64,000 bases of DNA, taken from NCBI RefSeq assembly GCF_050320075.1, contig NZ_CP190018.1, one strand, 5' to 3'. Origin of the DNA: Escherichia coli (GTDB lineage Bacteria; Pseudomonadota; Gammaproteobacteria; Enterobacterales; Enterobacteriaceae). Position 1 is the first letter of the stretch. Each line of letters begins with the position of its first letter. The position numbers are program-made. Below are positions 27,001-30,000 of this stretch, piece after piece.

Positions 27001-30000
27001 CGTCAGGGCGGAACGTCCGTCTTTTATCCGGAGGTTCCGATGTTTATTCCACTTCTGTTTCGCGCAGAGATGCGCCTGACACCTTTCTTTCAGCGACTCA
27101 GACAACGTCTGTGTTATCCGGTGAGTCGTGTTCATACACAACATCCCTGGTCTTCTCCACAGTTGCGGCACCTTTACTGCACGCCGTGGTTTGTTAACGC
27201 CACCGGCAATCTGGCAGTCCGTGCCTGCATTGTTTCCATTGACGGTTCTTTGCGACACTGCTTTGAGTTCCGTGAAGGCTCTCACAGCCGTGAATACCGT
27301 TTCTGGTTTGAGGCGCTTCCTTTGTCGGTACTGCGTTTTAACGCTTTTACCGGTCGAATATCCGATCGCCGTACACTCTCTGCTGCCTCCCGTATGGCCG
27401 CGCAGCTTACTTCCTTTCGCTATCGCTTCGGTTTGCGCTGAAGCTGTTTGAGGTCGTTATGACCGTCATTTTCTCTACGAGCAGCGTTGTCTGATCGCGC
27501 CATTCAGAACGCGATGACAAAGCTGATTTTTCCTTAACCCGTCCGGGACCGCTTCCGTTCGGGGAACGGTCTCTCTGTTTCTGGAGATTGTTTATGGGAC
27601 TCGATATTTTTTTCCTTGGGCGTGATCGTGTTTGTGTTACCGACGCAGTGGTATCGGTACCGGAAACGCGGGAAGTGGGGTACTTTCGCAAGGTTAACCC
27701 ACTGATTGCCTGGTTTGAGAAGCATTGTGGACCGGTTGAAAATGCCGTGGAGCGTCCGGTTTCCAGAACGGAACTGGAGGCACTACTGAGCGATCTTGAA
27801 TGCCTTACGCCGGAGAACTGCCGGGAATTCTTCCCCACAACAGAAGGATTCTTTTTTGGCTCTCAGGAGTATGACCAGTATTACTGGAAGGATGTTGAGG
27901 ACGTGAAGTCGTGGGTCAGACGCACGCTTGATTCGTTTGATTTTGAACGAAAAATACTGTTGCTCTGGGCATGGTGGTAACTATTTCTCAGTCCTTGTTT
28001 TTAACCATGTGATTATTCGCAGAGGCCCGACAGCTCTGGCCTGCTTTTATTCCGGAGAATGAGATTATGCAAATAAGTGCAGAAACTCGCGCTGTTTTAC
28101 GTCACTACAGACAGATCATTAACGCCAGACGGCGTGAAGATGGCATGAAAGCTCTCAGCACGCCGCAAATCGTTGATGAGATCTGTGAGTTTATGCTCAG
28201 CCAGCCAGCAGTGTATCTGGGGGGGCAGTTCATCATGCAGAAGGCCAGAACAAGATAGCTGTCTTTGTTCATGGCTTTTCAACAGACCGTTATGCTTTCG
28301 CCACCACATGGTGAGGCGGGTCTGATTTTACTGTTAACCGTACGGTTCACTCTCATACCGTACGGTGGGAGTGAACCCTTTTCATTAAGGACACTCTCAT
28401 GAAAACGAAAACTTCTGCACCTGCTGTATATGTTGGTACCTGGGCTAAATACAACAATGGCAGCATAGAAGGATGCTGGTTTAATGATTTAACCGTTTTT
28501 GAAACTGAAAGCGATTTTTTAGCTGCGGCCCGTAAGTTTCATAAGGATGAAAAAGATCCTGAATTTATGTACCAGGATTATGAAAACTTTCCTTCGGGAA
28601 TGGCTTCAGAATATGGTTTCAACTGGGCTTATGTTGAAGGTTATCGTCTTGCCCGTGAAGAAGGCTGTGAAGATGCATGGTATGCATGGGTTTCTAATAC
28701 CGGTGATACCTGTTTCGAACAGTTCAGGGGGGCGTGGCTTGGTGGTCCTTATGACAGTGAACTCGAGTTCGCCGCGCAGTACGTGGATGAATGCGGTTTT
28801 CTGTCAGAGGTACCTGATACTGTTGCACGCTATTTTGATTATGAGGCTTTTGCGCGCGATTTGTTCATGGAACTGGATTTTGTCGACGGACACGTTTTCC
28901 ATAGGTAACTCACAGCCATGAGGGCGCATATAAGCCGTGTACTGGCGGATGTGATTTCAGCATACATTCTGCTGGTTTTTTTACCGTTGTTGACAATTTT
29001 AATCATCGCGGATGAACAACCTGAACTCTGTTGTTCACCGCCCGGAGGCATCGTTCCTTCGGACGGTGTGCTCTTTCATCAGAAAGAATCAGACAGGGGG
29101 TTTTATGTATTCGCGTTTTATTACTGGTTACTGGCATCTTCAGACGCAGTCCGCTTTGCTGGCACATCTCTGTCAGCTTGAAGGTGAACTGACGATACTT
29201 CGCGCCTGGCAACGTCTCGGAATTACCCCGGTGCCGGAGGATGAAGATGAGCCTTCACCACTTTACTCAATTTTGTGGGATGTTGGTGAGGCTCTGGGCT
29301 GGTTGCTGTATGACCTGGAGATGGAAAATGTTCCTGCACCGGGAACGATTTTCCACGAGGTATTCGACAGGGTTATATCTCTGGGGTATGAGACTGAGCC
29401 CGGTATCTGGGCTGAAAGTATCAGTACCGGAAAGCGCTACGCTGCAATGCCTGACGAATTTTAATGTTTTCCACATTCCCACAGGGACTCATCCCTGTGG
29501 GACGGGTCCCGGCTTTTTCAGGAGAAATTTCATGAGACCCGATTTGAATACTTTACCCGGAGATTCCGGCTGCAGCGTCTGGTTCTATGACGGAATGTCT
29601 CAACCGCGTCTGCTGGCGGGCAGTATTGCCGGGTTACTGACGGATGTTACGATCACATCGAATTACCGTGGTGACGTCACATCTGAAATTCATGACGTGG
29701 TGCAGGAGTGGCTTGCGACCGGCAGGGGGAAGAACTCTGGTACTACAACCTCTACATAAATCCGTCGGCAGACGAACTTATGAATGCCAACAGGCGGTAT
29801 GGCCTCGGACATACCACCTGGCTGAAAGGCTTTATCAATAACGCGGCGTGACACACCGCCATCCCGTGAGGGCTCAGCTCCTCACGGGGCTGTTCCCTCA
29901 GTGATTTTCATACAGAGAGGAGCAGAATGATGAACGTTAAGTCTGTGACTGAGGTTGACGACGCTGTGGTTGCCCGTGTCAGTGAAGTTCTGGAATTCGC

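What the first reader, a model, noticed from the sequence alone, without database searches (positions are those of the whole stretch)
28337..28377. Twin 10-bp perfect palindromes just upstream of ardA
accgtacggt occurs twice, 20 bp centre to centre (about two helical turns), inside a larger inverted repeat about 30 bp before the ardA start. This is the geometry expected for a dimeric repressor operator.
Basis: seen in the sequence. Interest (0 to 1): 0.45.

Follow-up and report, generated by a model that had tools for sequence, protein, structure and literature searches.

The report
Twin palindromes before ICE ardA gene
Two identical 10-base palindromes really do sit two DNA turns apart just upstream of an anti-restriction gene on an E. 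coli mobile element and look like a repressor docking site, but the protein, the promoter and any function remain unproven, and the same bases could instead act as an RNA hairpin.

Summary
ACCGTACGGT occurs exactly twice in 64 kb, at 28337-46 and 28357-66, 20 bp centre to centre. The second copy ends 32 nt before the ardA ATG at 28399. Such twins arise in 7 of 2000 shuffles. The window is a SPI-7-type E. coli ICE that carries mcr-1.

The operator reading is plausible but only partly supported.
- For: the palindromic cores are not needed for a hairpin. The only ardA-proximal promoter-like hexamers (TTAACC-16-TACCGT) coincide with the two sites. The identical twin with the identical gap sits on a consensus promoter of an unrelated higBA operon, where it matches a conserved HigA operator.
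- Against: there is no strong promoter and no recognisable regulator in the ICE. Only one further near-copy exists (24088-99). All 40-odd copies of this region are at least 98.6% identical, so conservation says nothing.

The same bases also form a stable 10-bp helix. It extends to a 49-nt hairpin and stacks on a helix that covers the ardA ribosome-binding site, so an mRNA-level role is a serious rival.

The upstream 63-aa gene is a YffA homologue. This family is a conserved neighbour of anti-restriction genes, and its fold is weakly RHH-like, which makes it a speculative candidate binder.

Confidence in the operator reading is about 0.4. Interest is modest.

The parts
28336..28347 (.). Palindrome 1 (AACCGTACGGTT, 12 bp perfect; the core ACCGTACGGT is 28337-46). 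Proposed operator site O1. It is also the 5' strand of helix A.
28357..28366 (.). Palindrome 2 (ACCGTACGGT). Proposed operator site O2. It is also the 3' strand of helix A and the apex of hairpin B.
28327..28346 (+). Unit 1: TTTACTGTTA plus palindrome 1. This is an imperfect direct repeat of unit 2. TTTACT resembles a -35 hexamer.
28346..28366 (+). Unit 2: TTCACTCTCAT plus palindrome 2. The 10 nt between the palindromes (TCACTCTCAT) form the loop of helix A.
28366..28377 (+). TGGGAGTGAACC. This shared 3' arm can pair with 28344-55 (hairpin B), with about 28327-36 (extended hairpin A), or, through GGGAGTG, with CACTCTC at 28392-98 (helix C).
28344..28377 (+). Hairpin B. It looks like a terminator (13 pairs, -19.8 kcal/mol alone, tail CTTTTCATTA) but is never the minimum-energy fold in its native context.
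28334..28361 (+). Weak candidate promoter TTAACC-16-TACCGT. The -35 overlaps site 1 and the -10 overlaps site 2. The inferred start is near G28368.
   Evidence: PWM score 7.1, 99.93rd percentile; not found by the consensus scan
28283..28324 (+). Hairpin P1 (-17.8 kcal/mol) followed by ATTTTACTGTT. It is the likely terminator of the upstream yffA-like gene (inferred).
28387..28401 (+). ardA translation initiation region: SD AAGGA (28387-91), CACTCTC (28392-98) and ATG (28399). CACTCTCAT is an exact repeat of 28348-56.
28399..28908 (+). ardA (169 aa), followed by a good terminator at 28957-75 plus T7.
28067..28258 (+). A 63-aa basic (pI 10) YffA homologue. This family is a conserved neighbour of ardA/klcA genes. 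Its predicted fold is weakly RHH-like. It is a speculative candidate binder.
24088..24099 (.). Third near-copy, ACCCGTACGGTT, 19 nt after the first STAXI element. Its paralogous position after the second STAXI is the small hairpin ACCGGATTTATCGGT (26918-32).

Best explanation
The two palindromes are most likely a pair of DNA binding sites (O1 at 28336-47, O2 at 28357-66) for a two-fold-symmetric protein. One dimer would bind each site, both on the same face of the helix (20 bp centre to centre), and together they would gate transcription of ardA.

Shown: the twin dyads, their spacing and their non-randomness; their overlap with the only promoter-like hexamers next to ardA (-35 TTAACC, -10 TACCGT); a terminator-like hairpin (P1 plus a T-run) between the upstream gene and the sites; and use of the identical twin arrangement at a higBA promoter elsewhere.

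Inferred:
- Transcription from upstream largely stops at P1, so ardA depends on a weak local promoter that the bound protein occludes.
- In an established host the protein keeps ardA off. After transfer into a naive cell ardA is expressed until the repressor accumulates. This follows the logic of zygotic induction known for Reg576 on p576 and, from memory, ArdK on pKM101 and KorA/KorC on RK2 klcA.

The binding protein is unknown. The upstream YffA-like protein is only a weak candidate. A DNA role does not exclude an RNA role: any read-through transcript would carry the same bases as a stable hairpin.
For: - Twin identical palindromes occur in 7 of 2000 shuffles. A hairpin needs complementarity, not dyad symmetry of each arm, so the palindromic cores are best explained by dimer binding.
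- The spacing is 20 bp.
- PWM scan: TTAACC-16-TACCGT at 28334-61 coincides with both sites.
- P1 hairpin (-17.8 kcal/mol) followed by ATTTTAC lies upstream.
- Locus L081 carries the same 10-mer twice with the same 10-bp gap on TTGACA-17-TATAAT, immediately upstream of higB (PF05015, 5e-20) and higA (HTH_3, 3.6e-11). Three homologous higBA promoters (65-77% HigA identity) keep GTAC-centred sites flanking the -35.
- Precedent for repressor-controlled anti-restriction genes with two dimers per operator: Reg576 (PMC6294495).
Against: - The consensus scan finds no promoter in 28259-28398. The PWM candidate matches 7 of 12 positions, and about 0.5 such hits are expected by chance in 140 bp.
- No HTH or RHH family hit in any neighbouring ORF. 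No HigA-like ORF anywhere in the ICE.
- The motif is absent (at one mismatch or fewer) from the left 30 kb of the ICE, and only one near-copy lies elsewhere, not at a gene start.
- All copies of the region are 98.6-100% identical, so there is no conservation signal.
- The flanking inverted repeats and the CACTCTCAT repeat at the start codon are not required by a simple two-site operator.
- Plasmid yffA loci have no such palindromes.
Confidence: 0.4

Rival explanations
1. An mRNA structure. In a transcript that reads through from the yffA-like gene (or starts near 28303), copy 1 pairs with copy 2 to form helix A. Helix A extends to a 49-nt hairpin (28327-75) and, once the start region is transcribed, stacks on helix C (GGGAGUG with CACUCUC, CCUU with AAGG). 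Helix C covers the Shine-Dalgarno sequence and the bases just before the AUG. The element would then set ardA translation, mRNA stability or processing. Less likely, it acts as an attenuator in which helix A prevents the terminator-like hairpin B.
For: - The 151-nt region folds at -53.5 kcal/mol, z = -4.67, with 0 of 200 shuffles as good.
- The A+C state is -29.9 against -24.4 for the B state, and P(A) = 0.997.
- Helix A forms as soon as copy 2 is made and is never displaced.
- The flanking arms use G.U pairs, which only work on the mRNA-sense strand.
- An exact 9-nt repeat, CACTCTCAT, occurs in the loop of A and at the start codon.
- The gene cluster is enriched in plus-strand hairpin-plus-T-run sites just before each SD: 11 found against 3.4 +/- 1.9 expected, 9 of them on the plus strand.
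Against: - A hairpin does not need each arm to be a palindrome (about a 1 in 1000 coincidence).
- Hairpin B, which could have explained a palindromic apex, is never the favoured fold.
- The cost of opening the ardA initiation region (8.1 kcal/mol) is about the median of the ICE genes, so sequestration is ordinary.
- The only variant in the arms (28369 G>T in strain TUM9803) breaks a pair in both B and C without compensation.
- No Rfam family matches.
- No covariation data exist.
Confidence: 0.3
2. A single-stranded-DNA element. The hairpin-dense 140-nt spacer would work in the transferred strand, for example as a priming site or a small substitute for the Frpo-type ssDNA promoters that precede ard genes elsewhere.
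For: - In every other ard-yffA locus examined, the ard gene is preceded by a Frpo-like GC-rich structured element. The ICE lacks it but has three or four hairpins in the same place.
- STAXI and EFASI motifs nearby have been suggested to act as ssDNA (PMC2864571).
Against: - The stems are 10-18 bp, too short to hold a -35 and a -10 in one arm.
- No sequence similarity to Frpo-like elements.
- DNA-parameter folding is much weaker (-14.7/-15.3 kcal/mol; z = -3.5).
- The G.T pairs become A.C mismatches on the template strand.
- The position of oriT and the transferred strand of this ICE are unknown.
Confidence: 0.08
3. No present function. It would be a relic of a duplicated small palindromic hairpin, or of a foreign promoter-operator, carried along in a recently spread clonal element.
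For: - All copies are nearly identical, so purifying selection cannot be shown.
- A related small hairpin, ACCG...CGGT, follows each STAXI copy.
- The ICE region is a mosaic of plasmid leading-region genes.
Against: - The twin is improbable by chance.
- It sits at the one place where ardA control is expected.
- Contig L011 is 95.4% identical overall but has no difference across 28223-28493. With a single comparator this could equally reflect recombination.
Confidence: 0.15

Closest known systems
Reg576 operators controlling ardC and other establishment genes of plasmid p576 (PMC6294495)
   Same: Both involve an anti-restriction gene on a conjugative element and a short repeated motif next to its start. 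In p576 two repressor dimers bind each operator. The logic is transient expression after transfer.
   Different: The Reg576 motif is a direct dual heptamer, TTATCCC, 2 bp apart. It sits at four near-consensus promoters, including that of the repressor gene itself. Here the sites are perfect palindromes 20 bp apart, found at one gene only, with no strong promoter and no identified repressor.
HigA (XRE-HTH antitoxin) operator of higBA promoters, as in metagenome locus L081 and its homologues
   Same: The identical 10-mer ACCGTACGGT occurs twice with the identical 10-bp gap. The GTAC-centred dyads are conserved in related higBA promoters.
   Different: There the sites flank the -35 of a perfect sigma-70 promoter of the regulator's own operon. 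The ICE has no higBA, no HTH_3 protein and no consensus promoter. The flanking sequences are unrelated.
Frpo/ssi single-stranded-DNA promoters upstream of ardA, klcA, ssb and psiB in IncI1/IncF leading regions (PMC11541004 and references there)
   Same: Both are structured non-coding DNA directly upstream of an anti-restriction gene that is paired with a yffA-family gene.
   Different: Frpo-type elements are long GC-rich imperfect hairpins of about 300 nt with shared sequence words. The ICE spacer is 140 nt, unrelated in sequence, and its stems are too short to carry a promoter.
Intrinsic terminator with a competing antiterminator helix (classical attenuator)
   Same: Hairpin B plus a T-run is flagged as terminator-like. 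Helix A is mutually exclusive with it and forms first.
   Different: The terminator is never the favoured structure, so there is no obvious switch. No leader peptide or ligand- or protein-binding domain was identified.
ArdK/ArdR-CUP control of ardA/ardB on pKM101, and KorA/KorC control of klcA on RK2 (recalled from the literature, not checked here)
   Same: Repressors encoded by the element shut off anti-restriction genes after establishment, acting through palindromic operators at their promoters.
   Different: The operator sequences are different and the regulators are known. No homologues were recognised in this ICE.

Membership tests
Repressor operator at a promoter (Reg576/Kor/ArdK-type control of an anti-restriction gene) | Repeated symmetric or paired motif with helical phasing | tested here: met
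   Two identical perfect palindromes 20 bp centre to centre. Such twins occur in 7 of 2000 shuffles.
Repressor operator at a promoter (Reg576/Kor/ArdK-type control of an anti-restriction gene) | Sites overlap a functional promoter of the controlled gene | tested here: inconclusive
   The consensus scan finds none in 28259-28398. The PWM scan gives weak TTAACC-16-TACCGT overlapping both sites and TTCATG-17-TATGCT upstream, both at chance-level frequency. There are no transcript data.
Repressor operator at a promoter (Reg576/Kor/ArdK-type control of an anti-restriction gene) | A cognate DNA-binding regulator is encoded by the element | tested here: inconclusive
Repressor operator at a promoter (Reg576/Kor/ArdK-type control of an anti-restriction gene) | The motif recurs at other controlled promoters, including the regulator's own | tested here: not met
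   Only one near-copy (24088-99), and it is not at a gene start. None at one mismatch or fewer in the left 30 kb of the ICE.
Repressor operator at a promoter (Reg576/Kor/ArdK-type control of an anti-restriction gene) | Protein binding, and de-repression when the sites are mutated | not testable with these tools
   Needs EMSA or pull-down and reporter assays.
HigA antitoxin operator | Twin GTAC-centred dyads about 20 bp apart | tested here: met
   The same 10-mer and gap as L081.
HigA antitoxin operator | Located on the promoter of a higB-higA operon, or with a HigA-type HTH in the element | tested here: not met
   tblastn and a HigA-family HMM against all ORFs of at least 35 aa in the ICE give a best E of 0.66.
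Intrinsic terminator / attenuator | Stable stem followed by a U-run | tested here: met
   Hairpin B at 28344-77 has 13 pairs and the tail CTTTTCATTA; it is -19.8 kcal/mol alone.
Intrinsic terminator / attenuator | The terminator hairpin is the structure adopted (or is switchable) in its native context | tested here: not met
   B has probability 0.003 in the ensemble and is never the MFE at any transcript length. Helix A forms first and persists.
Frpo/ssi ssDNA promoter | A long imperfect hairpin carrying -35 and -10, homologous to Frpo-like elements upstream of ard genes | tested here: not met
   No similarity to plasmid elements. The stems are 10-18 bp.
Described RNA families (Rfam 15) | A match to a covariance model over 28259-28398 | tested here: not met
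   No hit at E up to 10. STAXI (two copies) and EFASI lie elsewhere in the region.
Ribbon-helix-helix DNA-binding proteins (for the YffA-like neighbour) | An N-terminal beta-strand forming an intersubunit ribbon, plus two helices in an intertwined dimer | tested here: inconclusive

The most novel reading that the evidence does not exclude
The YffA family is a group of 60-70-residue basic proteins of unknown function. They sit next to ardA or klcA in thousands of IncF/IncI leading regions and in this ICE. The proposal is that YffA is an RHH-like DNA-binding regulator of anti-restriction genes. In this ICE it would bind the twin ACCGTACGGT dyads as two cooperating dimers and switch ardA off once it has accumulated, giving a built-in timer for the anti-restriction burst after transfer.
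Probability: 0.1. Interest if true: 0.6.

Novelty: new member of a known kind. Interest (0 to 1): 0.35.

Why it matters
ArdA lets an incoming element survive type I restriction in a new host, and this ICE carries the colistin-resistance gene mcr-1. How and when ardA is switched on therefore bears on the host range of a clinically relevant element. For SPI-7/PAPI-1-type ICEs nothing is known about control of establishment genes. A defined 30-bp bait would allow the unknown regulator to be fished out directly. If the binder proved to be the YffA-like neighbour, it would assign a function to a very widespread leading-region protein family. If the element proved instead to be an RNA hairpin, it would be an ordinary intercistronic structure.

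Tried and rejected
**Comparative analysis of the ardA upstream region**
- The genome-contig scan with ArdA returned only Bacteroidales relatives at 39-43% identity.
- The protein search shows a gap between 92-98% (the same ICE lineage) and 62% (IncI1).
- All recoverable copies are 98.6-100% identical in the spacer. These are 35 E. coli chromosomes and contigs L011, L125, L138 and L139.
- Covariation or footprinting is therefore impossible.

**Searches for the twin motif elsewhere**
- Gaps are spread over 0-30 bp. Most hits are coding repeats (for example the TrmD motif HRTVDD.PYGGG), tandem arrays, or a Bacteroidetes intergenic repeat with AACCGTACGGTT every 21 bp.
- Only L081 was informative.

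**Other checks that led nowhere**
- The 140-nt spacer has no partial match elsewhere in E. coli genomes or plasmids.
- The idea that the ardA ribosome-binding site is unusually sequestered was rejected. Its opening energy of 8.1 kcal/mol is mid-range among ICE genes.
- Hairpin B as a working terminator was rejected on energetics and folding order.
- An H-type pseudoknot (loop of A pairing with the 3' flank) was rejected on geometry, because there are no linker nucleotides to cross a 10-bp stem. This is my own reasoning.
- The resemblance to CACCGCCCGGTG, which lies 33-34 nt before plasmid ardA/klcA starts, was rejected as homology. It is not conserved in distant loci and belongs to a long-range Frpo stem.
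- LexA, CRP, MqsA, SlmA and other E. coli operator consensus sequences recalled from memory do not fit.
- Literature searches for the 10-mer or 8-mer as an operator found nothing relevant.
- The afdb50 fold library was unavailable.
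Full report
**Observation.** The sequence at 28320-28401 reads gtctgattttactgttAACCGTACGGTTcactctcatACCGTACGGTgggagtgaacccttttcattaaggacactctcATG.
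- ACCGTACGGT is exact at 28337-46 and 28357-66, and these are the only two exact copies in the 64-kb window.
- The first copy is a 12-bp perfect palindrome at 28336-47.
- The centres are 20 bp apart. The second copy ends 32 nt before the ATG at 28399.
- That ATG opens a 169-aa ORF that matches Pfam ArdA (E 3.8e-26) and is annotated ArdA in RefSeq.
- Single perfect palindromes of at least 10 bp are common (42 in the window, fewer than the 65.6 +/- 7.4 in shuffles). Perfect 10-bp stems are also common.
- Two identical non-overlapping 10-bp palindromes within 60 bp arose in only 7 of 2000 dinucleotide shuffles.

The unusual property is the dyad symmetry of the repeated unit.

**Context.** The window is a SPI-7/PAPI-1-type integrative conjugative element in the E. 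coli chromosome.
- It carries TIGR037xx ICE proteins, a SPI-7-type DnaB, TopB, Ssb, a type IVb pilus with a shufflon, and a TraI relaxase. Its integrase lies next to tRNA-Phe at 58126-58201.
- ardA lies in a plus-strand cluster: a 128-aa gene (27594-27980), a 63-aa gene (28067-28258), ardA, then genes for 119-aa, 75-aa, LPD29 and DUF1281 proteins.
- Upstream are two STAXI motifs and one EFASI motif around an integrase-domain gene.
- The 63-aa protein is a homologue (57-65% identity) of YffA from IncF/IncI leading regions, found in more than 5000 plasmids.

**Anatomy.** The two palindromes belong to imperfect direct repeats of about 20 bp.
- The units are TTTACTGTTA+X (28327-46) and TTCACTCTCAT+X (28346-66). 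On the opposite strand a third unit, TTCACTCCC+X, shares copy 2.
- On the mRNA-sense strand several mutually exclusive helices are therefore possible:
  - Helix A: copy 1 with copy 2, 10 bp, loop UCACUCUCAU, -15.4 kcal/mol.
  - An extended A spanning 28327-75 (-22.0 kcal/mol, with three G.U pairs).
  - Hairpin B: 28344-55 with 28366-77, -19.8 kcal/mol, tail CUUUUCAUUA, flagged as terminator-like.
  - Helix C: GGGAGUG (28367-73) with CACUCUC (28392-98), plus CCUU with AAGG, which covers the Shine-Dalgarno sequence.
- The whole spacer folds far better than shuffles (z = -4.67).
- Helix A forms as soon as copy 2 is made. Hairpin B is never the minimum-energy structure. The final state is A+C at -29.9 against -24.4 for the B state.
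- Upstream, hairpin P1 (28283-28324, -17.8 kcal/mol) is followed by ATTTTACTGTT and looks like the terminator of the 63-aa gene (inference).

**Evidence on the RNA reading.** The support is thermodynamic only.
- The energy needed to open the ardA initiation region (8.1 kcal/mol) is about the median of the ICE genes, so sequestration is not exceptional.
- The one variant in the arms (28369 G>T, strain TUM9803) breaks a pair in both B and C without compensation.
- No Rfam family matches.
- A hairpin does not require each arm to be a palindrome. Hairpin B could have explained a palindromic apex, but it is disfavoured.
- The cluster is nevertheless enriched in plus-strand hairpin-plus-T-run sites just before each gene's SD (11 found against 3.4 +/- 1.9 expected). 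Structured intercistronic RNA is therefore a general feature here.

**Evidence on the operator reading, negative.**
- The consensus scan finds no promoter in the spacer.
- Pfam, PHROG and NCBIfam find no DNA-binding domain in ten neighbouring small ORFs. PDB sequence searches of four of them (the 128-, 63-, 119- and 75-aa proteins) likewise gave no significant hit.
- The motif does not recur upstream of other genes. There is one near-copy, ACCCGTACGGTT, at 24088-99, 19 nt after the first STAXI, and none in the left 30 kb of the ICE.
- The paralogous position after the second STAXI holds a small hairpin, ACCGGATTTATCGGT.

**Evidence on the operator reading, positive.**
- A position-weight scan finds two weak candidate promoters. 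One is TTCATG-17-TATGCT (28268-96).
- The other is TTAACC-16-TACCGT (28334-61). Its -35 and -10 coincide with palindromes 1 and 2, and its inferred start near G28368 would put helix C at the 5' end of the mRNA.
- At this score about 0.5 hits are expected by chance in 140 bp, so this result is permissive rather than supportive.
- The strongest new argument comes from the metagenome scan for the twin motif. Most hits were coding or tandem repeats.
- Locus L081, however, carries the same 10-mer twice with the same 10-bp gap on a perfect TTGACA-17-TATAAT promoter. That promoter lies directly upstream of higB (PF05015) and higA (HTH_3).
- Three homologous higBA promoters (HigA 65-77% identical) keep GTAC-centred sites flanking the -35.
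- This exact geometry is thus a natural operator design for an HTH dimer pair.
- The ICE itself encodes no HigA-like protein. The support is by analogy only.

**Comparative limits.**
- ArdA of this lineage has no relatives between 92% and 62% identity.
- The genome scan returned only Bacteroidales.
- Every recoverable copy of the spacer is 98.6-100% identical, and it has no match in plasmids.
- Contig L011 is 95.4% identical overall yet has no difference over 28223-28493. That is suggestive, but it is equally explained by mosaic recombination.
- Other ardA lineages (IncI1, L012, L147, L154, L157) have unrelated upstream regions, mostly Frpo-like.

**A candidate binder.** The 63-aa YffA-like protein is basic (pI 10.0) and has 75 homologous clusters.
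- It models confidently (pLDDT 91.9) as coil 1-4, helix 5-24, helix 32-45 and a beta-hairpin 48-57.
- Against this, Foldseek finds nothing (E > 2), no N-terminal ribbon is predicted, and plasmid yffA loci carry no comparable palindromes.
- Independently, yffA-like genes are syntenic partners of anti-restriction genes. They lie directly downstream of ardA in L154 and L157/L158, and downstream of ArdB/KlcA in L155/L156, L135 and L134.
- In this ICE the order is inverted, and the Frpo-like element that precedes the ard gene elsewhere is missing.
- This makes YffA a reasonable but unproven candidate.

**Verdict.** I rank the explanations as follows.
- Protein-binding operator pair gating ardA: 0.4.
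- mRNA structure: 0.3.
- Relic without function: 0.15.
- ssDNA element: 0.08.

The first two are not exclusive. In kind, repressor control of an anti-restriction gene on a conjugative element is known from Reg576 (PMC6294495) and, from memory, ArdK and KorA/KorC. At most this would be a new member of that kind. It fails the regulon and regulator criteria of that family as far as they could be tested. Interest is modest (0.35). The most novel reading not excluded is that the YffA family are RHH-like regulators of anti-restriction genes (probability about 0.1).

Noticed in passing
window 33372-38052: The colistin-resistance gene mcr-1 and a PAP2 gene, flanked by two ISApl1 copies (one with an internal stop), are inserted inside the ICE next to traF. 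This is the composite-transposon arrangement, here on a chromosomal SPI-7-type ICE.
   Followed up: no
window 23910-24069, 24547-24669, 26707-26860: Two STAXI RNA motifs (89 and 138 bits) and one EFASI motif flank an integrase-domain gene (24827-25744) just upstream of the ardA cluster. This is the typical STAXI neighbourhood.
   Followed up: partly
window 26860-27590: The annotated 197-aa 'hypothetical protein' (26848-27441) overlaps the end of STAXI and has an implausible translation. The 730-nt stretch is probably non-coding and rich in plus-strand hairpins. The segment 26800-27000 differs at about 120 positions between ICE copies.
   Followed up: partly
window 27555-29075: Each gene of the cluster is preceded by a plus-strand hairpin plus T-run immediately before its SD (27555-69, about 28023-43, 28344-77, 29048-69). 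Terminator-like sites number 11 against 3.4 +/- 1.9 expected, 9 of them on the plus strand.
   Followed up: partly
L154, L155-L158, L134, L135 and window 28067-28908: yffA-family genes (60-70 aa) are conserved immediate neighbours of anti-restriction genes (ardA or ArdB/KlcA) in distant elements, normally downstream of the ard gene and behind a Frpo-like element. In this ICE the order is inverted and the Frpo-like element is absent.
   Followed up: partly
window 28265-28402: A 45-codon ORF (TTG at 28265, ATG at 28271) spans the whole spacer and ends in ATGA, overlapping the ardA start codon. This is the classical translational-coupling arrangement. It has no SD and no evidence that it is translated. 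The 28369 G>T variant is synonymous in it.
   Followed up: no
window 28219-28225: A G7 run lies inside the yffA-like gene. Other copies have G8 (L139) or GGGTGGG (L011, L138). L138 and L139 encode frameshifted products of 82-84 aa that run to the TGA at 28323-25.
   Followed up: partly
L081 3215-3330 (also L151, L152, L153): The higBA promoters of an uncultured lineage have a perfect TTGACA-17-TATAAT with GTAC-centred dyads flanking the -35. The L081 version is ACCGTACGGT twice with a 10-bp gap. This is a likely HigA operator defined here by comparison.
   Followed up: yes
L078, L082, L088, L101: Bacteroidetes-like contigs carry intergenic arrays of AACCGTACGGTT palindromes at a 21-bp period with alternating AAAGG/CCTTT-type spacers. 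This is a REP-like repeat family unrelated to the ICE.
   Followed up: no
L134 3067-76, L135 3483-92, L149 2447-56, L012 2869-78: Frpo-like elements of IncI/IncF plasmids end with CACCGCCCGGTG 33-34 nt before the ATG of ardA or klcA. This is almost the same distance as ICE palindrome 2 (32 nt), and GTGAAC follows in both. The motif is not conserved in distant loci, so it is probably coincidence.
   Followed up: partly
window 27369-27385: gatcgCCGTACACTCTCtg resembles the junction of palindrome 1 with the CACTCTC loop sequence. It may be a further degenerate copy or may be chance.
   Followed up: no
window 21574-21837: A type B (zinc-independent) ribosomal protein L31 gene is carried as ICE cargo between the T4SS genes and the STAXI region.
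   Followed up: no
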